Below are positions 6,675 through 32,724 of a DNA stretch of 39,327 bases, piece by piece (the first letter of the stretch is position 1; the number at the start of each line of letters is the position of its first letter). The stretch is from NCBI GenBank assembly GCA_033696785.1, contig GCA_033696785.1_4550.1; one strand, written 5' to 3'. The notes under the pieces are model-generated. The model was not told the origin of the DNA and did no database searches. It was given only the letters and a program-made list of their open reading frames with translations. The translations under genes and the position numbers were made by a program. This DNA is from a phage.

Positions 6675-8824
6675 GTTGGTCCAATCTTACCTTCGGTATC
6701 AAGGACACATTTAAAGTTATAGAACTCACCCACCTTACGCATAGCAAGTTGAGCAATCTTGACGACTTCTTCGGCAATCTCCTGAGTACGACACGCAATC
6801 TGTAGCTCATCGTGAACCCAAGCCATGTACGCGAAGTCTCCTTCCCAGCCGTGGACATACCCGGCCTCTTCAAGCATACGTTCAGTCTCGACAATCCAGT
6901 GCTTACAGACAACCGCACCATCACCTTGAAGCAGAGCGTTAAGTGCTGAGTGTGGCGACCGGATGTGAATTCGCCGACCATCCAGACCTTTCAGCCAGCG
7001 ACGTTTCCACTTCACGATGTTTTCACCATCTACCCACTTCGACTCTGAGATGAGCGTGTTCTGCACAGCCTCTCGCAGGTCCTTGATCGCTGGTGTACCC
7101 TCAATGAATTTCTTCATCAGGGCTGCACCTTCCTTCTTACCACCACCAACTATCAGTCCAATCTTCGCGGCCCCTGCACCATACAGGAACGCATAGATGA
7201 ACGTCTTGGCGTTATTACGGAAAGCATCGTGGTCATGGCTCGACTTGTCGCGTGGGACGTTAGGTGCTAACCCAGCGTTGACTGCGTTGGCCCAGTGGAT
7301 GTCACCTTCGACCACAGTCTTCGCATAGTCGCCACCATCAAACGGAGCCGCTCGGTTCCCCAGACAACGAAGCTCAAGACCTGAAGCATCCACGCCTACT
7401 TGAATCCAAGGGTCTGGCTTACCGTCCTTCTTGTTCCACGCTGCACCGAAAGCACCACGGCAAGTCTCACCATACGGAGCACCGTTAGCCGGGACCTGAG
7501 CCATGTTTGGTGAACTATGGGTAGCACGTCCGGTTACTGCACCACATGGGTTGATTGAACCATGCATACGTCCGTCTGGACCTACAAGCTTCAACCATGC
7601 GTTCTTACCTTCAGCAGCCTGCCCGATGCGCTTCTGGACCACCAGATACTCACGGACCAGCTCTACGCAAGCCTGAGCCTCTGCGTCTGGTAACTTAACG
7701 TGTTCTAACGTCTCGTCATCAACTACAGGTTTCCCAGTGTCAGTGAAGTCCACAGGCTCCCAACCGCGCTCCATCAAGACTTTCGCTAAGTGGTCTCCGC
7801 TTCCCGGATTAAACTCAACGTAAGTGATTGGCGTGAATGGTGCTCCATCCATCGTGTCTCGCGTATCGCGTTCACAAGGTTCAAGACCTAAGCGTTGAGC
7901 TTTGTTCTTAGGTTTCTTAAAGATTCCACCGACCTTAGGATACACGACTCTCGGATACTTCGGAAGGTCCTTACCTGTCCGTGGATGCCTGAAAAACTCC
8001 TTGCCCCCCTTTGGTGCATACCAGCTACCAAAAGTAGAGCGCAGCTTGTCTAGTAACTCCGCACGTTTGACAGTGAGTTCACGATATAAGCCTTCGACCA
8101 TCTCGGTGTTCATCGGATAGCCGTTACGTTCCATCTTCGCACAGGTCCACGCAGCATCATGTTCCAGACGCAACGCATAAATCTGTTCGAAAGCGAACTG
8201 TTCAGACTGGAAGTAATACTTGTCAGTCAGGAACTTCTTGAACAACGCCAGTGTGACCACAACGTCCTGAACGTTATAGTCCAGCATCTCCTGAGACGGG
8301 AACAACCATTCGTCCCCAGACTTATATTCGATACCTTCGGCCTTGCACTTGGCAACGTAATCGTGTTTGTACTCACCCTTCATCTCACCGAGACGATAGC
8401 CCCAAGCCTCAAGAGACTGACGTCCCATCAGCTTAGGCGGCAGACGACCGGCTTTCACCGCGCCCATGTCTGAGAACTTAATGTTGGGATACATCAAGCG
8501 GCCCAGAACCAAGGTATCAATCATCTTGTGTTTCGGGAAGTTAAAGCGTTTCCCAAAGTACAGACGTTTCAGCTTGTCAATAGCCGGGACGTCGTAGTTG
8601 ATACCGTTATGGAAGACCAGCATACCCGTAGGCGTTGCAGCAATTTCTTCCACCTTCTGTACATACTCTTTGAAGCCACCGACGATACCGACCATCGGCG
8701 CTACACCATACTTAAGGGTCTCATTCGACTCGGCATTAATCAGGACCCCACAATGGAACTGGGACACGGTGTCAAGGAGACCGTTGGTCTCGATGTCGGA
8801 GCCATAAACGTTACTTAAATCCAT
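6656..8824 (-). CDS. DNA polymerase, family A (T7 gp5 homolog)
   Basis: 722 aa with an N-terminal 3'-5' exonuclease region (MDLSNVYGSDIETNGLL) and polymerase motifs (DASGLELR, FIYAFLYGAG). Confidence 0.97.
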   Translation of the reverse strand: MDLSNVYGSDIETNGLLDTVSQFHCGVLINAESNETLKYGVAPMVGIVGGFKEYVQKVEEIAATPTGMLVFHNGINYDVPAIDKLKRLYFGKRFNFPKHKMIDTLVLGRLMYPNIKFSDMGAVKAGRLPPKLMGRQSLEAWGYRLGEMKGEYKHDYVAKCKAEGIEYKSGDEWLFPSQEMLDYNVQDVVVTLALFKKFLTDKYYFQSEQFAFEQIYALRLEHDAAWTCAKMERNGYPMNTEMVEGLYRELTVKRAELLDKLRSTFGSWYAPKGGKEFFRHPRTGKDLPKYPRVVYPKVGGIFKKPKNKAQRLGLEPCERDTRDTMDGAPFTPITYVEFNPGSGDHLAKVLMERGWEPVDFTDTGKPVVDDETLEHVKLPDAEAQACVELVREYLVVQKRIGQAAEGKNAWLKLVGPDGRMHGSINPCGAVTGRATHSSPNMAQVPANGAPYGETCRGAFGAAWNKKDGKPDPWIQVGVDASGLELRCLGNRAAPFDGGDYAKTVVEGDIHWANAVNAGLAPNVPRDKSSHDHDAFRNNAKTFIYAFLYGAGAAKIGLIVGGGKKEGAALMKKFIEGTPAIKDLREAVQNTLISESKWVDGENIVKWKRRWLKGLDGRRIHIRSPHSALNALLQGDGAVVCKHWIVETERMLEEAGYVHGWEGDFAYMAWVHDELQIACRTQEIAEEVVKIAQLAMRKVGEFYNFKCVLDTEGKIGPTWKECH

Positions 8825-9216
8825 GTAGCACCTCCAATCGCTCGGGCTATTGTCCTATGCCCTACGCCGTATTTCTCTCCCAGAGAGCGGTGAGTCCATC
8901 CACCAGAAGCGTACAATCTCTTAGCCTCGGCTACAATTTCAGGTGTCAACTTGGCGCATCCCACTTTTACACCCTTTGCTGTACGTCCACGGACATCCCG
9001 GTCCTTAACGTTATCAGCTCGTGTCCCAAGCTCTAGGTGATCAGGGTTATAACATGACGGGTTGTCACACTTATGACGGACAACCAGTCCCTTTGGTATT
9101 GGACCATTAGCTTCCTCATACGCTATGAGATGTAGCCTACGGACTTTCCCATTGACCCTACGCATGCCATAGCCGAACTTATCTCGGCACCCGGTCCACT
9201 CAATACAGTCAATCAT
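8815..9216 (-). CDS. HNH homing endonuclease (paralog 1)
   Basis: 133 aa with CIEW..GYG and LVVRHKCDNPSCYNPDHLELGT core, between the primase/helicase and polymerase genes. Confidence 0.88.
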   Translation of the reverse strand: MIDCIEWTGCRDKFGYGMRRVNGKVRRLHLIAYEEANGPIPKGLVVRHKCDNPSCYNPDHLELGTRADNVKDRDVRGRTAKGVKVGCAKLTPEIVAEAKRLYASGGWTHRSLGEKYGVGHRTIARAIGGATWI

Positions 9217-11501: not shown

Positions 11502-11969
11502 TTAACCGTGGTCGGAAGTGACCAGTTCATTGGTAGACAGCCAGCGTTGCAAGTCGAAACTTGGACACGCCTTTGGTGCTACGTCATGGTGTGCTTTTAT
11601 TTCTGCCTGAGGATACAGGACCTTCAGGTCAGCCAGCTTGTTGCGCAGGGAGTTCATCTGGGCTGGAGTGAAGCTAGCTTCAAACTTGCCCTTAGCGTCG
11701 ATTCCACCTACAAGGCAGACGCCTACGGACCGGGAGTTCCAATCCTTAACGTGTGACCCTACGACATTGACCGGGCGACCCTCTTCCACAGTACCATCGC
11801 GCTTGATGATAAAGTGGTAGCCTACGTCCAGCCAGCCTTGCTGCTTGTGCCACATACGGATGGTCTCTACCCCGATGTCCATCTCTGGCTTGGTAGCCGA
11901 ACAGTGAACGAAGATAGCGTCAGTCCGGGACCGTGGGTTGAACTGTACCTTACTTACCATTATTTCCAC
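11502..11969 (-). CDS. N-acetylmuramoyl-L-alanine amidase / lysozyme (T7 gp3.5 homolog)
   Basis: 155 aa with IFVHCSATKP, QGWLDVGYHFIIKRDGTVEEGR and HHDVAPKACPSFD, near-identical to T7 lysozyme. Confidence 0.95.
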   Translation of the reverse strand: MEIMVSKVQFNPRSRTDAIFVHCSATKPEMDIGVETIRMWHKQQGWLDVGYHFIIKRDGTVEEGRPVNVVGSHVKDWNSRSVGVCLVGGIDAKGKFEASFTPAQMNSLRNKLADLKVLYPQAEIKAHHDVAPKACPSFDLQRWLSTNELVTSDHG

Positions 11970-12329
11970 CTCTTGTGGTTCCTGATTCGGCTTATGGTCG
12001 CCTCACTCACTGAGTATTTTGCAGCCATAAACTTAAGGGTCTCGCTTGAGGTGCGAATCTCCTTAACGTCCTCTTCAGTTAGTTTTGAATTAAATGTCCT
12101 GCGCACTGAGCAGTCCATCATGTTTTCCGCTTGAGTCCCAAGCTCAAGGTGCTTGATGTTTACGCACGAGCGGTTATCACACTTGTGTCTTACGACAAGA
12201 CCTTCTGGTATGACACCATTGCCTCTAGCCAAGCGGCTCTATGAGCACCCATAGATTGACCACGGAATTTACGTCTTCCGTAGCCGCCCTTGTTGAGACT
12301 CTTAGTCCATTCTATGCAATCACTTTCCA
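11960..12329 (-). pseudogene. HNH endonuclease (paralog 4) disrupted by a 1-nt frameshift
   Basis: N-terminal 46 codons (MESDCIEWTKSLNKGGYGRRKFRGQSMGAHRAAWLEA) are in one frame; the C-terminal part (GNGVIPEGLVVRHKCDNRSC...) is the track ORF 11960..12232 in another, starting at TTG just after an in-frame TAG. Confidence 0.65.
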
Positions 12330-12778
12330 TTGTAAACAACGAGTTCTACGACCACTAGATTCAGGTGCTGGGTGAAGCGTTGTGCGTCCGTGGTGTGCAT
12401 CTGGAGGCGCTTATGGTTGAAGACGTGTGAGTTGCTGATCTTCACGTAAACTTCTTCAGGCTTTCCGTGGACGATGAACGTCTGGCCTACACCAATCTTG
12501 TCGATGGTCAGGACTTCACGCTTCACGGTCACAGGCGGTACGCTCGAAGCTGGTAGGACTTGAGGCTGGTCAACAACTTCTACACTGTATGTCTCGTGGC
12601 CATTCCAGCCGAAAGTCTCACCGATGTAATCCTCAGGATGCCACCCCTTCTCCACAATTACGCTATGGTCTTCTCGCTTTTCGAAAACAGCATCAGTGAA
12701 TCTGGGGTTATTCAGCAGGGTGTTCTTTGAGAATCTGTAACGTGTTCCAACTTCAAGGTCTTTACAGGTAGTCATCAC
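12320..12778 (-). CDS. Hypothetical protein, 152 aa, no T7 counterpart at this position
   Basis: Sits between the endonuclease I and lysozyme genes, which are adjacent in T7. No motif recognised. Confidence 0.7.
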   Translation of the reverse strand: MMTTCKDLEVGTRYRFSKNTLLNNPRFTDAVFEKREDHSVIVEKGWHPEDYIGETFGWNGHETYSVEVVDQPQVLPASSVPPVTVKREVLTIDKIGVGQTFIVHGKPEEVYVKISNSHVFNHKRLQMHTTDAQRFTQHLNLVVVELVVYNGK

Positions 12779-13224
12779 TTAACTCCTTTCTTCTTTGGGA
12801 TGAGTATACCTGAAGGCAGACGTACAGTCGCCTCTCGAAGCCACTCAACCGGGATAAACTTATCGGCATACTTATAGCCGTTCTTTTCGCACCATGCGCC
12901 ATACGTGGTCGGAGACCCTTTGTATAGCTTGGAGCGGGAACTTGAGAACACGAACCGTATGTCTAACTCTGGGTGCTGTTCTCGTACCAGAAGGTGCTTC
13001 TTACGGTCATCACTATCGAAGATACCTTTGGTCTCAACGATGATACCGTTAGGAAGGATAAAGTCGGGCGTGTAAAAATGATCGCTAGCAGGTACTACAT
13101 ACATAATTTTATATGCCTCATACTCAGCCCGTACCCCGTTCTTCTCCAGCCACTCTTGGTTCTTTGCTTCAAGCCCAGAGCGATACGCTCCCACTTTATG
13201 TCCTCGACTAATTGTTCTTGTCAC
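12775..13224 (-). CDS. Endonuclease I, Holliday-junction resolvase (T7 gp3 homolog)
   Basis: 149 aa with YTPDFILPNGIIVETKG and DRKKHLLVREQHPELDIRFVFSS. Confidence 0.95.
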   Translation of the reverse strand: MTRTISRGHKVGAYRSGLEAKNQEWLEKNGVRAEYEAYKIMYVVPASDHFYTPDFILPNGIIVETKGIFDSDDRKKHLLVREQHPELDIRFVFSSSRSKLYKGSPTTYGAWCEKNGYKYADKFIPVEWLREATVRLPSGILIPKKKGVK

Positions 13225-13657
13225 GCTTACGCCTCCAGTTAATAGCCTGTGGAGTAACTCCGAACATCTTAGCTAGCTCACTATTGGGCCGCGAGGACTT
13301 CAGGATGAACTCTACGTCTTCCTCGGTCAGCTTAGTCTTATTGTTAGCTTCTCCTATGAACACTGGAGGTTTCGACTTTCGCCCCCTCTCCATGCAGTCC
13401 CTCATGTTGTCCTTCTGCGTACCTAGTTCAAGGTGCTCAGGGTTACAGCAGCAGGGGTTGTCGCATTTATGTCTAACCAACATTCCATCAGGAATAGGAC
13501 CTATGAACTCCATGTATGACACACGATGTGCATAGTCCTGTTTCTGTCTTCCTATTGATATTCGACCGTATCCAGTAGGGAACCGGGAGCGTTGCCACTC
13601 CCAGCACCCGGAGGGAGAAACCTCAGAGTAATCCTCCAGTTTCTCTTTTAGATTCAT
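13208..13657 (-). CDS. HNH homing endonuclease (paralog 2)
   Basis: 149 aa with GCWEW..GYG and LVRHKCDNPCCCNPEHLELGT, plus C-terminal KLTEEDV helix. Confidence 0.88.
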   Translation of the reverse strand: MNLKEKLEDYSEVSPSGCWEWQRSRFPTGYGRISIGRQKQDYAHRVSYMEFIGPIPDGMLVRHKCDNPCCCNPEHLELGTQKDNMRDCMERGRKSKPPVFIGEANNKTKLTEEDVEFILKSSRPNSELAKMFGVTPQAINWRRKRDKNN

Positions 13658-20771: not shown

Positions 20772-20957
20772 AACTCCTATTAATGCAAGTGGTAATCTTT
20801 GAGGCCACCTATCAGTCGATGACCTCTAGTTTATCACTCGCGCAATTAGTAACCACCCGTCAGCGTTATGGTCAGGCTCTGGTGATTAGCCACGTAGCAA
20901 GCCCCGCGCCTCATCATCTCGTAGCACCCCCTCGTAAAACGCCTGCTCACTGCTATA

Positions 20958-21130
20958 AGTTATCTGGTACATGTGTACTTGTCCTCATCGTGTAAACTGT
21001 CGTGAATACGTTTGCGGCCCTCATAGACCGCCTTCAGGTGACGCATAGTCGCATCATGTTTTAACTGCCCGGTCTTGACCATAATCCGGGCGTTAGTGAC
21101 GTGGTGCTGGCAGAGACCATAAGTTACCAT
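20958..21130 (-). CDS. Small early protein, about 57 aa
   Basis: Hand-translated [22 protein letters not shown]...; start overlaps the Ocr stop (TGATGG). Not in the ORF track. Confidence 0.3.
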
Positions 21131-28386: not shown

Positions 28387-28409
28387 CGTTTCCTATAGTG
28401 ATAGTTTAG
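28387..28409 (-). promoter_or_regulatory. Phage RNAP promoter (phi17 equivalent)
   Basis: Plus strand tttcctatagtgatagtttagtc, overlapping the gp16 stop. Confidence 0.85.
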
Positions 28410-31400
28410 TCCTTGATGTGGATACCTTGCTCCTCAAACGTTCCAAGAAGCAGCTTCTGGGTAATCGGGTCGTTCGGGACAAGTTCGCGGAACGTGTTAT
28501 ACATCCCAGTCATGTAGTCTCGCTCATTGACACGAGTATCTGCCTTGAGGTAGCCAGCCAAGTTGTAAGCCGAAGCGCCAACGTTAGCAGCATATCCGAA
28601 AGCTGGAACCTGCTCAAGGAAGTTACCGACCACGTTCATCACCGGGTCACTTTTCGCAGCGCCATAGGGAATAGCACGTTCAGGCTTCTCTGTAGGCGAA
28701 CGAGGTAGAATAGACGAACGGAGCATCTTAGTGTCCTCATACCCAGCGATGCCCCCCAGAATGTTAGCTACCCCAAGTGGTCCACCAAGGTGTGAACTAC
28801 GTGATAGAGCTGCATATCCAATCATAGTCGGGTCCAGAGCTTGCTTGAGGTATTCACGGTCTCTACCATCCTGCATAGCGTAAGCCTTGACGTGAGCCTG
28901 AGCCATGTAGTAGATACCAGCCAGACCCATAGACATCACGGTAGATAGAGCAGCATCCATCGCTCGGTTGTTCTTCGTGGCGTTATAGAAGGTACGCATG
29001 GTTCGCCCATTGATGGACTTGATGACGAAGTTCTTAAACTGAAGGACAGTCTTAGCTAGAGGGCCATAAGCCTTGGCATCCATGTTAGACAGCTTATGAG
29101 GTCGTAGTAACGTTTCATCAGCGATGGTGTCACCCATACGCCACAGGTCCATAGCCCTTGGGTCCTGACTGAACGACTTCTTATCCTTGATGGTGTACTT
29201 CCCGTCTGGGCCACGAGTCACTGACTCACGGATTAGGGACTTAATGCCCTTCCACTGCTCGTCAGAGATACCAGCGGTCTTCAGCCATCGGTCATCGAAC
29301 TTACGCTTACTACCAGTCAGGCTATGCTCCACGATGTCAGACAGGAAGCCTTGACGTCCAGCATCTAACAGGTAGTTGGTCGTACCGTTGAGGAGTTTAG
29401 TGAACGGAGAGCGTACTGCAAGTTCACCAGTGTAATACTTGGCAGTCCCCAGAGCTGTAGCTGTACCACGACCGAGGTCACTGTAAGACCGCAGACGGTC
29501 AATGACATCCTGTTTAGACGGACGGATTGAGTCATCAAGTTCCTTACCGAAGAGAACATTGTGAAGGTCCTTAATCTCTGAGGCTCCGACCTTCTTGTTA
29601 CGGAAGGCTAGGTCACGGAACATCGGGACTCCATGTAGCAGCGCCCGAACGTTACCACGAGCCAGCATACCACCAATCTCCGTTAAGTTCTGAACACCCA
29701 TGTAGGCATTCTTAGCGAAGAACGATAGGTCTGTCATTGTGCGCATCACGGTAGCGAAGGCCGCATCATCAGCACCATCACGTCGAGCACGACCAGTTAG
29801 AATCTTCAGAGTGTCACGTAAGGTAGATACTTCACCTTTCAACTTACCGTCATCCCCAGCCTTGTTCATCATGGTCTCAACCAAGTCCTTCATGTCCTTC
29901 GTGGTTTTGCCTGTACCAGCCATGATAGCAATATCTCCATTAACTCGACGGTTGTAGGCAGGGACAATCTTGTCCATGTCCCACTCACGAAGGTTGTTGA
30001 CACTGAAGGTCTGACCGTTAGGTAGGACGATTGACATATCGCTATCGAACAGGTTACGAGCCTCAAGGAAGCTGTTGTTCTCCAGACCAACCAGACCGTT
30101 GATGTTCTCTTCCATTACGGATGAACGTTCGAACTGCTCGGTGTGAGAGATACCGTAAGCCTTATCGTTGGCGTACTTATCGACCGCAGCAGCAAGTCCC
30201 TCTGGAGTCAACGTAGGGTCAGCCTCTAAGAGTGCCTCGTCCACGCGTTTCTTGACTTCAGGTCGAGACGCATAGCTGGTAAGCCATGACTTCTTGATGG
30301 CCTCCTGCAACGCCTCTGGACTCCCAAGCTCCTTGATGTACAGCTCCTTCATCTGTTTGCTATACACATGAGGGACGTATGTTCCCTTGAAGTGGCTACC
30401 CGGAAAGATAGACTGAGCGTCTGGGCGACCAAACATAGCTGGGTTCTCCATCATCTCACGCTTGGCGTCGAACTGGTTCTTCAGCAGGTCATAGACTTTC
30501 AGTTCTCCCGGAGTCAGTTCAGCCTTCAGGTTTCCGCTGCCATCTTCGATAGCCATAGACACGCGCTGGTAGATGTCCTGACGGAATGCTCCAGAGTCTC
30601 GCCAGAATGCTGTCTGGAAGTACGGGTCCTTTAGTGCCTCAGTAACCGCATTGTCGATGTCGTTGTAGAACCGATGGTCCACAGCACGAAGTCTCTCGAA
30701 CACGTCTGACGCAGTGGTCCCGATTTTACCTGAGGCCCCAGACTGCATACCAGTCGGTGAACGCACTAAGTCAGCAGCTACTCCACGAATCTCAGGGTTC
30801 TCAGACCGAAGCAGCTTCAGACCAATCTCGGTAAGTCCACCAAGGTTCACACCAGCAGCGGCACGTTCCGGCTCAATCACTTCGTCAAAGACTTGACGTG
30901 TCTTAGGGTTCAGAGGGTTCTCACCAATCAGGATTGAACCATCTTCTAATCGTACACTTCCCGGCTCATTCGGCACGTCAGCGAACTTAACGCCTTGGTG
31001 ACTAAAGGTCTCCTCTCCTTCACGGATTGGCATACGCGACAGGTCTTGACCATCAACATTACGTGCAGTCTCGCGAGCTTCCAGACGTATAGCTGGACCA
31101 GCGAACTCGTTAGTGTTGCGACCTAAGGCTCTGCCTAGTCCATCAGCTATAGCAGTCATACCACCACCGAAGAGAGCACCGCCAATAATGGCCTCAGCAA
31201 CATGAGCGTCCCCACCAGCAACTGAGGTTCTAGCAATCTCGGATGCCCCAGCCAGAGCACCAGACTGAGCAGCCACAGTGAACATCTTGTTGATTAGCTT
31301 CCCACCTTTACCTACCTGCCCAGCAATAGGAACGTAGGTCAGAGGGTCCACGCCAGCACCAATCACACCAGCCGCCAGTTGAGCGCCAGTCCCAGCCTTT

Positions 31401-32293
31401 GCCTTCTCTTGGTCCAACTTCTGGTTCTCAAGCGCCAAGTTAATCAGCTCTGTCAGATTCTGAGGAGAACCGCCAGTAATGACTCCGTAATACTGAGGCA
31501 GAACCCCAGCGTTACGAATCTGGTCCAGCTCCTCACGAGACCACTTATGGTTGTTCCATCGGGTTGGGTTGAACACATCGCCAATGACATCCAGTGAGTC
31601 CTCAGTCTGACCAGCTCGTATAGCCACGCCGACCATAGAGTTCTTCACTTCAGCTTCTGTAGCCGCACCGAAACCGAACCACGTAGAGCGGTCCTCTCGT
31701 TCCTGCATGGTCTCTCCAGTAGCCTTATAGAACATCTCACCGAACGATTCGTTGGGAGCTTCAGGTGCTTGACCCTCAATGTTCAGACCAGCAGCGGTCG
31801 GAAGGTTCTCACCCAGAGCCACTTTAGGTTTAGCCTTGAGTCCTTCCGTGAGTGCGTCAAATACGGTAGCGCTTACTGGTGGAGTCTTTGGGCTGATACC
31901 GTTGAGTGCTCTTGCTACCCCCTGTTGGTAGACTTCAGGGTCGTACCGGGAGCCTGTCTCGTGGTAGCCTATAGCCTCAGACAGAGAGGCGAGGACGTCA
32001 GGGTTCGTCAGGTCGAGACTTTGTGTTGCTGGAATGCCGGTCGCAGCCACAACAGAGTTGATGTAGGACTGAGTGTCATTCTCATTAGGCGGCGCCCAGC
32101 GGTTGATAATCTTCTCGATGGAGTCATAACCTTGGCGACCGTAGCTTTGAAGGTTTTTAGCTAAAGCTCGTACCCCAGATTCAGGACTATCGAATATAAC
32201 GAATGCACCATCATCCCCTACTGCACCTTCCCATTGGTCTTTGGACTTACGGATATTTCCCGGATTTGAATTTCTTACTCCACGTGTTGCCAT
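28406..32293 (-). CDS. Internal virion protein D (T7 gp16 homolog) with a divergent N-terminal domain
   Basis: 1295 aa; body colinear with T7 gp16 (SPTGMQSGASGK, KGTYVPHVY, NNSFLEARNLFDSD, AYNRRVNGDIAIM). The first ~130 aa (NSNPGNIRKS...WEG) lack the T7 transglycosylase motif I recall. Confidence 0.93.
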   Translation of the reverse strand: MATRGVRNSNPGNIRKSKDQWEGAVGDDGAFVIFDSPESGVRALAKNLQSYGRQGYDSIEKIINRWAPPNENDTQSYINSVVAATGIPATQSLDLTNPDVLASLSEAIGYHETGSRYDPEVYQQGVARALNGISPKTPPVSATVFDALTEGLKAKPKVALGENLPTAAGLNIEGQAPEAPNESFGEMFYKATGETMQEREDRSTWFGFGAATEAEVKNSMVGVAIRAGQTEDSLDVIGDVFNPTRWNNHKWSREELDQIRNAGVLPQYYGVITGGSPQNLTELINLALENQKLDQEKAKAGTGAQLAAGVIGAGVDPLTYVPIAGQVGKGGKLINKMFTVAAQSGALAGASEIARTSVAGGDAHVAEAIIGGALFGGGMTAIADGLGRALGRNTNEFAGPAIRLEARETARNVDGQDLSRMPIREGEETFSHQGVKFADVPNEPGSVRLEDGSILIGENPLNPKTRQVFDEVIEPERAAAGVNLGGLTEIGLKLLRSENPEIRGVAADLVRSPTGMQSGASGKIGTTASDVFERLRAVDHRFYNDIDNAVTEALKDPYFQTAFWRDSGAFRQDIYQRVSMAIEDGSGNLKAELTPGELKVYDLLKNQFDAKREMMENPAMFGRPDAQSIFPGSHFKGTYVPHVYSKQMKELYIKELGSPEALQEAIKKSWLTSYASRPEVKKRVDEALLEADPTLTPEGLAAAVDKYANDKAYGISHTEQFERSSVMEENINGLVGLENNSFLEARNLFDSDMSIVLPNGQTFSVNNLREWDMDKIVPAYNRRVNGDIAIMAGTGKTTKDMKDLVETMMNKAGDDGKLKGEVSTLRDTLKILTGRARRDGADDAAFATVMRTMTDLSFFAKNAYMGVQNLTEIGGMLARGNVRALLHGVPMFRDLAFRNKKVGASEIKDLHNVLFGKELDDSIRPSKQDVIDRLRSYSDLGRGTATALGTAKYYTGELAVRSPFTKLLNGTTNYLLDAGRQGFLSDIVEHSLTGSKRKFDDRWLKTAGISDEQWKGIKSLIRESVTRGPDGKYTIKDKKSFSQDPRAMDLWRMGDTIADETLLRPHKLSNMDAKAYGPLAKTVLQFKNFVIKSINGRTMRTFYNATKNNRAMDAALSTVMSMGLAGIYYMAQAHVKAYAMQDGRDREYLKQALDPTMIGYAALSRSSHLGGPLGVANILGGIAGYEDTKMLRSSILPRSPTEKPERAIPYGAAKSDPVMNVVGNFLEQVPAFGYAANVGASAYNLAGYLKADTRVNERDYMTGMYNTFRELVPNDPITQKLLLGTFEEQGIHIKD

Positions 32294-32724
32294 GTCTTTC
32301 TCCTCAAGATATTTCTAATAGAAACCGTACTCACTCCATATCGTTCCGCTAAGAGTGAAACCTTTAGGCCGCTGGACCTTATGTCTCTCACGATTTCTTC
32401 AGTGAGCTTAGATACTCCTATGGAGCATCCTGACGCTTGGCGACCTCTAGTCACCTTATCCTTTATGTTGTCAGCTTGGGTGCCGACTTCAAGGTGGCTT
32501 GGGTTTATACAGGACGGGTTGTCGCATTTATGACGAACAACGTATCCATCGGGTATAGGACCATTAGCAAGCTCGTAGGCAAGTCTATGTGCTCCATATT
32601 TCACCCTATTAATCATTATCCTTCCATAGCCGGATTTATCAATGCTTCCGGTGAATCGGATACAGCCAGACTCTTCGGCTACTGACAGTTCTGCCAGTCT
32701 CTCACTGGCTGTCCCGTTCTTCAT
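32275..32724 (-). CDS. HNH homing endonuclease (paralog 3) in the structural module
   Basis: 149 aa with GCIRF..GYG and YVVRHKCDNPSCINPSHLEVGT, between the gp15 and gp16 genes. Confidence 0.88.
   Translation of the reverse strand: MKNGTASERLAELSVAEESGCIRFTGSIDKSGYGRIMINRVKYGAHRLAYELANGPIPDGYVVRHKCDNPSCINPSHLEVGTQADNIKDKVTRGRQASGCSIGVSKLTEEIVRDIRSSGLKVSLLAERYGVSTVSIRNILRRKTWQHVE

What the first reader, a model, noticed from the sequence alone, without database searches (positions are those of the whole stretch)
12200..12260. HNH paralog 4 is interrupted by a single-base frameshift
The N-terminal 37 residues (MESDCIEWT...AHRAAWLEA) and the C-terminal HNH core (NGVIPEGLVVRHKCDN...) are both intact but in different frames. 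The junction GAGGCAATGGTGTC would read through as ...LEANGV... with one extra A in the CAA run. This is either pseudogenisation, a homopolymer sequencing error, or a programmed shift.
Basis: seen in the sequence. Interest (0 to 1): 0.5.

Follow-up and report, generated by a model that had tools for sequence, protein, structure and literature searches.

The report
Frameshift-killed homing endonuclease gene in phage
A small selfish nuclease gene in this T7-like E. coli phage has really lost one base and is most likely dead, which is the ordinary fate of such genes and not a recoding signal or a sequencing mistake.

Summary
On the minus strand, an HNH_3 endonuclease gene between gp3.2 and the gp3.5 amidase is split. 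Residues 1-37 (ATG at 12330) and the HNH core (to the stop at 11960-11962) lie in different frames. Seven near-identical intact copies (98.9-99.5% nt identity) from other samples read GAG GCA AAT GGT.

A random sequencing or assembly error is effectively excluded. The same phage contig, 100% identical over every stretch fetched, occurs in at least six public assemblies, and all have A2. A programmed shift is not supported: there is no slippery heptamer, no long homopolymer, no downstream structure (z = +0.42), and every orthologue but one is a single ORF.

The gene behaves as a free-standing homing endonuclease gene. Only 3 of 137 related phage records carry it. It is a low-divergence island in roughly 5% diverged flanks, and it evolved under purifying selection (dN/dS 0.14). 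The window has no private substitutions, so the deletion is recent. The N-terminal piece holds invariant C5 and G16 and the near-invariant H30-R31, so the 90-aa remnant, annotated by NCBI as an HNH endonuclease, is probably inactive. This is ordinary and of low interest.

The parts
12190..12330 (-). N-terminal fragment ORF: 37 authentic residues, 9 out-of-frame residues, then a TAA stop
   Evidence: It holds invariant C5 and G16 and near-invariant Y17, H30 and R31 of the family.
12219..12220 (-). Site of the single-base deletion: an A2 run where intact alleles have A3 (GAGGCA[A]ATGG)
   Evidence: Alignment with L005-L011; coordinates.
11960..12232 (-). C-terminal fragment ORF in the -1 frame, with a mechanical TTG start. 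It carries the HNH core (H49, C51, C56, N58, H61, N70 in restored numbering) and a C-terminal helical DNA-binding-like region. True homology starts at about 12219. It is annotated in NCBI as the 90-aa 'HNH endonuclease' WP_171930896.1.
12320..12331 (-). Left copy of the imperfect 12-nt direct repeat AATGGAAAGTGA. It supplies the gp3.2 stop (TGA) and the HNH start (ATG).
11950..11961 (-). Right copy of the direct repeat, AATGGTAAGTAA. It holds the amidase ATG (11960-11958), which overlaps the HNH stop TAA (11962-11960).
11928..12344 (-). Low-divergence island containing the whole HNH gene: 2 substitutions and 1 gap against L008, while the flanks differ by about 5%
   Evidence: Fisher p = 4.9e-5
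11966..11972 (-). Shine-Dalgarno-like GAGGTGG inside the 3' end of the HNH gene, serving the amidase gene. It makes amidase translation plausibly independent of HNH read-through.
   Evidence: Read directly from the sequence; the function is inferred.
12320..12778 (-). Upstream neighbour gp3.2 (context). Its last codons, CTCGTTGTT (12335-12343), differ synonymously from those of HEG-less phages (TTGGTGGTG).
11502..11960 (-). Downstream neighbour gp3.5, N-acetylmuramoyl-L-alanine amidase (context); intact
   Evidence: 98% identity to the Bas105 amidase, single frame; Pfam Amidase_2 on the orthologues

Best explanation
This is a free-standing HNH_3-type homing endonuclease gene (372 nt when intact), inserted between gp3.2 and the gp3.5 amidase of a K1F-like (Kayfunavirus) phage. 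In this clonal lineage it has suffered a genuine, recent one-base deletion (A3 to A2 at 12219-12220). Translation from the ATG at 12330 stops after 46 residues. The HNH catalytic core is left in the -1 frame without a credible start and without the N-terminal hairpin-helix part, which carries an invariant cysteine. The gene is therefore most likely a null allele, a young pseudogene at the degeneration stage of the homing-endonuclease life cycle. What is shown: the deletion, its reproducibility across assemblies, the family membership, the mobility signature, past purifying selection, and the absence of recoding signals. What is inferred: loss of nuclease activity, and amidase expression being unaffected because that gene has its own ribosome-binding site.
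For: (1) Seven intact copies (98.9-99.5% nt identity) from several ENA and Logan samples lie in the same gp3-gp3.2-HNH-amidase context and read GCA AAT, while the window reads GCA AT. (2) The A2 state is present in every assembly of the identical phage: GCA_013181095.1, GCA_013182785.1, GCA_013181085.1, GCA_033696685.1, and Logan SRR8733867 and SRR24462312. Each is 100% identical to the window over the stretch fetched (573 to 20,450 nt). (3) All other genes with a Bas105 counterpart are intact in one frame (RNAP, DNAP, primase, terminase, portal, capsid, tail and others). The only other frame-breaking indel is in another small accessory ORF, as expected if selection filters real mutations. (4) The restored protein matches the full HNH_3 profile; the shift falls at residues 37/38, inside the domain. 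C5 and G16 are invariant and Y17, H30 and R31 nearly invariant, and all lie in the N-fragment. The AlphaFold model of the intact homologue (pLDDT 83) best matches I-HmuI. (5) dN/dS against the SD6 clade is 0.14 overall (N part 0.10, C part 0.17), so both halves evolved as one coding frame. The two window differences from the closest intact copies are both shared with the SD6-clade outgroup, so no mutations have accumulated since the deletion. (6) HEG behaviour: the insert is present in 3 of 137 related phage records; it is a low-divergence island in roughly 5% diverged flanks; 12-nt direct repeats flank it. (7) Phage HEGs are reported to be commonly unstable through frameshifts (PMC10448857), and phage ZH4 has an independent frameshift in the orthologous gene.
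Against: No reads were inspected. Whether the six assemblies come from independent samples is inferred from their distinct accessions and contig lengths, not from metadata; several come from neighbouring WGS prefixes and may share one laboratory source of phage. Loss of activity is inferred, not measured. The C-fragment alone still scores 46 bits on HNH_3, and there is a TTG at 12232 preceded by a weak AGAG.
Confidence: 0.85

Rival explanations
1. Sequencing or assembly artefact: the phage really has A3 and an intact gene, and the consensus dropped one A.
For: The site is a short homopolymer. Near-identical intact alleles exist. A second indel in the same genome also sits in a homopolymer (G5), which could point to a homopolymer-prone platform.
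Against: The same A2 is found in at least six separate assemblies, made by at least three pipelines (submitter WGS, an NCBI TPA record, Logan) from different runs, and each is 100% identical to the window over the stretch fetched. An A3 run is too short to be a usual systematic error site. All large genes, about 36 kb of coding sequence, carry no frameshift.
Confidence: 0.04
2. Programmed or compensated recoding: ribosomes or RNA polymerase shift -1 at GCA-AUG and make the full-length endonuclease at some level.
For: A -1 shift exactly here would restore the conserved ...LEANGV... sequence. T7-like phages do use -1 frameshifting elsewhere, for example capsid 10A/10B (established knowledge).
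Against: There is no X_XXY_YYZ heptamer anywhere in the 15-codon frame-overlap window, and no homopolymer of 4 or more near it. The 126 nt downstream fold no better than shuffles (z = +0.42). There is no Rfam match above chance (one sub-threshold hit elsewhere in the 1.4-kb stretch, E = 0.6). All 9 intact DNA copies aligned and the further near relatives found in the protein search (P0001-P0008) are single ORFs. The only other split copy, ZH4, is broken at a different site.
Confidence: 0.03
3. Functional split gene: the C-terminal 90-aa ORF starts on its own at the TTG at 12232 and works alone, or together with the 46-aa N-peptide, as a nuclease or a DNA-binding protein.
For: The C-fragment keeps H49, C51, C56, H61 and N70 and the C-terminal helical region, and it passes the HNH_3 threshold (46.2 bits). 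NCBI annotates it as a protein.
Against: The TTG has only a weak AGAG upstream and is not a conserved start; its first three residues (MAR) are out-of-frame junk. It lacks invariant C5 and G16 and the H30-R31 motif, which lie in the beta-hairpin and helix packed next to the beta-beta-alpha core in the model. Near-identical intact alleles and the absence of private substitutions show no time for adaptation to a split state.
Confidence: 0.06

Closest known systems
Free-standing HNH homing endonuclease genes of phages (Pfam HNH_3, PF13392; structural archetype I-HmuI, PDB 1U3E)
   Same: The restored reading gives a full HNH_3 match and conserved catalytic His/Asn and Cys/His residues. The predicted fold of the intact homologue is most similar to I-HmuI, with a C-terminal helical DNA-binding-like region. 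The gene sits intergenically next to essential or conserved genes, and its presence among close relatives is sporadic.
   Different: It is much shorter than I-HmuI (123 against 174 aa), and the structural match is modest (TMq 0.47). It is free-standing, not intron-encoded. In this window the ORF is broken. No cleavage site or activity is known.
Orthologous intact genes: Escherichia phage PH1061 WKV16791.1 ('HNH endonuclease'), phage SD6 XNY80034.1, and metagenomic P0001
   Same: Same locus (gp3.2 | HNH | amidase) and same length (123 aa). Identity to the restored window protein is about 89% (amino acids) for SD6 and PH1061 and 99% for P0001.
   Different: They are uninterrupted. The window lacks one A.
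Frameshift-degraded HEGs in other phages (e.g. ICP1 gp115-gp116 and variable HEGs, PMC10448857) and the invasion-fixation-degeneration-loss cycle of homing endonuclease genes (Goddard and Burt model; from own knowledge)
   Same: A selfish nuclease gene that varies between isolates and is inactivated by a frameshift. Independent inactivation occurred in a sister phage (ZH4).
   Different: Nothing substantive; this is another instance.
Programmed -1 ribosomal frameshifting of T7-like phages (capsid 10A/10B)
   Same: Only the direction of the frame change (-1) is shared.
   Different: There is no slippery heptamer, no stimulator, and no conservation of the two-frame layout.

Membership tests
HNH_3 endonuclease (PF13392) | Profile match above the Pfam gathering score | tested here: met
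   The restored 123-aa protein scores 61.1 bits (cut-off 24.8) over profile positions 2-46 of 46. The C-fragment alone scores 46.2 bits over positions 12-46. The N-fragment alone has no hit.
HNH_3 endonuclease (PF13392) | Conserved catalytic and metal-binding residues of the beta-beta-alpha-Me core | tested here: met
   H49, C51, C56, H61 and N70 are invariant, and N58 nearly so, in a 71-sequence family alignment. All are present in the window's C-frame.
HNH_3 endonuclease (PF13392) | The whole domain is encoded in one uninterrupted reading frame | tested here: not met
   The frame changes between residues 37 and 38, inside the domain.
HNH homing endonuclease (I-HmuI-like) | Fold similarity to a solved HNH homing endonuclease | tested here: met
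   The AF2 model of the intact homologue P0001 (pLDDT 83.4) has I-HmuI 1u3e as its top PDB hit (prob 1.00, E = 2.5e-3, TMq 0.47), followed by I-PpoI. The match is modest.
Homing endonuclease gene (mobile selfish element) | Presence/absence polymorphism at one locus among close relatives, with lower divergence than the flanks | tested here: met
   Three of 137 related phage records carry the insert. The HNH tract is 99.2-99.5% identical against 94.7-95.7% for the flanks, Fisher p = 4.9e-5. Direct repeats lie at the insert boundaries.
Homing endonuclease gene (mobile selfish element) | Site-specific cleavage of the HEG-less allele and gene conversion | not testable with these tools
   This needs purified enzyme and co-infection crosses. 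The only indirect hint is the HEG-linked synonymous differences in the last gp3.2 codons.
Programmed -1 ribosomal frameshift | Slippery heptamer X_XXY_YYZ in the zero frame within the frame-overlap window | tested here: not met
   There is none in the first 141 nt.
Programmed -1 ribosomal frameshift | Downstream stimulatory RNA structure | tested here: not met
   MFE is -31.5 kcal/mol against a shuffle mean of -33.1; z = +0.42. No Rfam match reaches significance.
Programmed -1 ribosomal frameshift | Two-frame arrangement conserved in relatives | tested here: not met
   SD6, PH1061 and L005-L011 are single ORFs at the DNA level. The further near relatives P0001-P0006 are full-length 123-aa proteins, and the P0007 locus also has a full-length ORF. 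ZH4 is split elsewhere.
Transcriptional slippage or contingency locus | Long homopolymer (about 8 or more) at the shift site | tested here: not met
   The run is A2 (A3 when intact). The longest runs in the gene are A4, and they lie elsewhere.
Sequencing or assembly artefact | Not reproducible across independent assemblies or runs | tested here: not met
   A2 is found in six separate assemblies of the identical phage. Raw reads were not available.

The most novel reading that the evidence does not exclude
The broken allele is not dead. Either a low level of unconventional -1 slippage at GCA-AUG, or co-expression of the 46-aa N-peptide with an independently initiated 90-aa core, still gives nuclease or DNA-binding activity. 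That would make it a naturally attenuated or two-piece HNH homing endonuclease, kept because full activity is costly to this clone.
Probability: 0.04. Interest if true: 0.45.

Novelty: already known. Interest (0 to 1): 0.1.

Why it matters
It matters mainly for annotation. The 90-aa protein recorded as 'HNH endonuclease [Escherichia coli]' (WP_171930896.1 / HEI0110561.1) is the tail of a frameshifted phage pseudogene and is not a bacterial protein. The case is also a clean, datable example of the degeneration step of a homing endonuclease gene: near-identical intact alleles are still circulating, and no mutations have followed the deletion. The intact and broken alleles form a natural pair for testing homing at the gp3.2/gp3.5 junction of K1F-like phages. 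Nothing here challenges current understanding.

Tried and rejected
(1) An exact junction pattern that allows 2 or 3 bases found nothing in viral contigs, metagenome contigs or genome contigs. The pattern was validated on the window and the fetched loci. The informative relatives came instead from the protein collection.

(2) The megablast query found nothing in E. coli genomes or plasmids.

(3) I considered recurrent N-terminal truncation in other lineages, based on the 97-aa P0007 and P0008. This was rejected: the ORF continues upstream to an ATG, and the gene caller chose an internal Met.

(4) Exact look-ups of the 46-aa and 49-aa N-fragments found nothing on record. Only the C-fragment is annotated.

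(5) A PDB sequence search with the restored protein gave no significant hit. Fold search was needed.

(8) A literature search for the assembly and run accessions found nothing, so sample independence rests on the accessions alone.

(9) The programmed-frameshift, transcriptional-slippage and phase-variation readings were rejected on the sequence criteria listed in the membership table.

Full report
**What is there**

The window is a K1F-like T7-group phage (Kayfunavirus). Its genes lie on the minus strand, and its closest deposited relatives are about 94-95% identical.

Between gp3.2 (12320-12778) and the gp3.5 amidase (11502-11960), the minus strand carries an ATG at 12330. It opens MESDCIEWTKSLNKGGYGRRKFRGQSMGAHRAAWLEA, followed by nine unrelated residues and a TAA at 12192-12190. 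The -1 frame carries NGVIPEGLVVRHKCDNRSCVNIKHLELGTQAEN...HKRWK to a TAA at 11962-11960.

Adding one A after GCA gives a 123-aa protein that matches the complete Pfam HNH_3 profile (61.1 bits against a cut-off of 24.8). The frame change falls at residues 37/38, inside the domain. The window holds three further, intact HNH_3 paralogs (32275-32724, 13208-13657, 8815-9216). They are 43-50% identical to this one, so they are not recent duplicates.

**What the intact gene looks like**

Only 3 of 137 related phage records carry this insert.
- SD6 and PH1061 have one uninterrupted 372-nt ORF.
- ZH4 is also split, but by an extra G in a G-run about 80 nt further on, which is an independent event.

A search of the large protein collection found P0001, an intact 123-aa protein 99% identical to the restored reading. 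It lies on seven contigs from several ENA and Logan samples, always in the order endonuclease I, gp3.2, HNH, amidase. These copies are 98.9-99.5% identical to the window at the DNA level. All read GAGGCAAATGGTGTC where the window reads GAGGCAATGGTGTC.

**Real mutation or error?**

The exact 90-aa C-terminal product is on record as WP_171930896.1 / HEI0110561.1, 'HNH endonuclease [Escherichia coli]'.

Following it and the neighbouring paralog led to six separate assemblies:
- NCBI GCA_013181095.1, GCA_013182785.1 and GCA_013181085.1
- the TPA record GCA_033696685.1
- Logan assemblies of SRR8733867 and SRR24462312

Each is 100% identical to the window over the stretch fetched (573 to 20,450 nt), and all have A2. 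Different runs and at least three assembly pipelines agree, so a one-off consensus error is effectively excluded. Raw reads could not be inspected, and sample independence rests on accessions only (one search found no paper).

Every gene of the window with a Bas105 counterpart is intact in one frame. The one exception is a conserved 41-aa early ORF broken by a +1 G (G5 at 20927-20931; relatives have G3 or G4), and the other assemblies share that change too. Two frameshifts, both in small accessory genes and none in about 36 kb of core genes, is what selection acting on real mutations would leave.

**Programmed shift?**

- The 15-codon window where both frames are open has no X_XXY_YYZ heptamer and no run of four or more bases.
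- The downstream RNA folds no better than shuffled sequence (z = +0.42).
- Rfam gives no match above chance (one sub-threshold hit elsewhere in the stretch, E = 0.6).
- All nine intact DNA copies aligned are single ORFs, as are the further near relatives from the protein search.

This reading is not supported.

**What the gene is and how it behaved**

Between the window clade and the SD6 clade, dN/dS is 0.14 overall (0.10 for codons 1-37 and 0.17 for codons 38-123). Both halves therefore evolved as one protein under purifying selection.

The window differs from the nearest intact copies by only two substitutions. Both are shared with the outgroup clade, so nothing has accumulated since the deletion, and the deletion is young.

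The gene is a low-divergence island. There are 2 differences in 369 nt, against 34 in 688 nt in the adjoining gp3.2 and amidase sequence (Fisher p = 4.9e-5). This is the signature of a recently spreading mobile gene.

HEG-less phages read ...TACAATGGTAAGTAAGGTACAG..., where the gp3.2 stop overlaps the gp3.5 start. HEG-bearing genomes have a 372-nt insert bounded by an imperfect 12-nt direct repeat (AATGGAAAGTGA at 12320-12331, AATGGTAAGTAA at 11950-11961). The repeat preserves both the gp3.2 stop and the amidase start.

The last gp3.2 codons differ synonymously between HEG-bearing genomes (CTCGTTGTT) and HEG-less ones (TTGGTGGTG). This could mark target-site immunity or co-conversion, but it rests on only two HEG-less sequences.

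**Consequence of the shift**

In a 71-sequence family alignment, C5, G16, H49, C51, C56, H61 and N70 are invariant, and Y17, H30 and R31 nearly so.

An AlphaFold model of the intact homologue (pLDDT 83.4) shows:
- a beta-hairpin and a helix (residues 18-38)
- the beta-beta-alpha metal core (45-77)
- a C-terminal helical bundle (86-117)

Its best PDB match is the HNH homing endonuclease I-HmuI, followed by I-PpoI.

The deletion separates the hairpin-helix part, which includes the invariant cysteine (possibly a fourth zinc ligand; this is inference), from the catalytic core. The core's only candidate start is a TTG at 12232 with a weak AGAG upstream. I infer a null allele.

The amidase gene keeps its own GAGGTGG ribosome-binding site at 11966-11972, so its expression probably does not depend on read-through. 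This too is inference.

**Comparison with what is known, and verdict**

Frameshifted, variably present homing endonuclease genes are a documented feature of phage genomes (PMC10448857). They fit the classical invasion-degeneration cycle of such elements (own knowledge). This is another instance, made cleaner by near-identical intact alleles still in circulation.

The practical output is an annotation correction: the 90-aa 'E. coli HNH endonuclease' is the tail of a phage pseudogene.

- Interest: low.
- Confidence that this is a genuine inactivating deletion: about 0.85.
- Residual probability is divided among artefact (0.04), recoding (0.03) and a functional split (0.06).

Noticed in passing
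window 20846-20972 (-), G-run 20927-20931: There is a second frameshift in the same genome. A conserved 41-aa early ORF (MYQITYSSEQEFYDGCYEMMKRGACYVANHHSLTITLTGGY in Bas105; also annotated in Peacock and P762) is broken by a +1 G. The window has G5, while relatives have TGGG or GGGG. The identical assemblies L018 and L020 share the change.
   Followed up: partly
whole window; loci L015-L021: This lytic-type T7-like phage genome occurs in at least four E. coli isolate assemblies at NCBI and in two Logan assemblies of SRA runs. Each copy is 100% identical to the window over the stretch fetched (573 to 20,450 nt), with contig lengths of 39,357-39,687 nt. This suggests a laboratory or culture contaminant, or a phage carried with the isolates.
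   Followed up: partly
window 12335-12343 (-): The last gp3.2 codons read CTCGTTGTT in all HEG-bearing genomes seen, with one variant, but TTGGTGGTG in the HEG-less K1F and Bas105. All the differences are synonymous. They may be target-site immunity or a co-conversion tract of the homing endonuclease. Only two HEG-less sequences were compared.
   Followed up: partly
L003 (phage ZH4, OM355495.1) about 1782-1813: The orthologous HNH gene of ZH4 is independently frameshifted by an extra G (GGGG to GGGGG) and is annotated as two hypothetical proteins.
   Followed up: yes
window 28406-32293 (-) and 32275-32724 (-): The gp16 homologue is 1295 aa against 1462 aa in Bas105; residues of about 690-853 of the Bas105 protein have no counterpart. 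A further HNH_3 paralog sits between gp15 and gp16, where Bas105 has none.
   Followed up: no
L013 1414-1794 (Logan ERR3179230 contig): The related HNH genes called as 97-aa proteins (P0007, P0008) are actually full length. The gene caller picked an internal Met because the true start overlaps gp3.2.
   Followed up: yes
L005 1239-1655: In the contig with the intact HNH allele, a stretch of about 416 nt between the SSB and endonuclease I genes has no called gene. The window has the HNH paralog 13208-13657 at this position. This was not examined.
   Followed up: no
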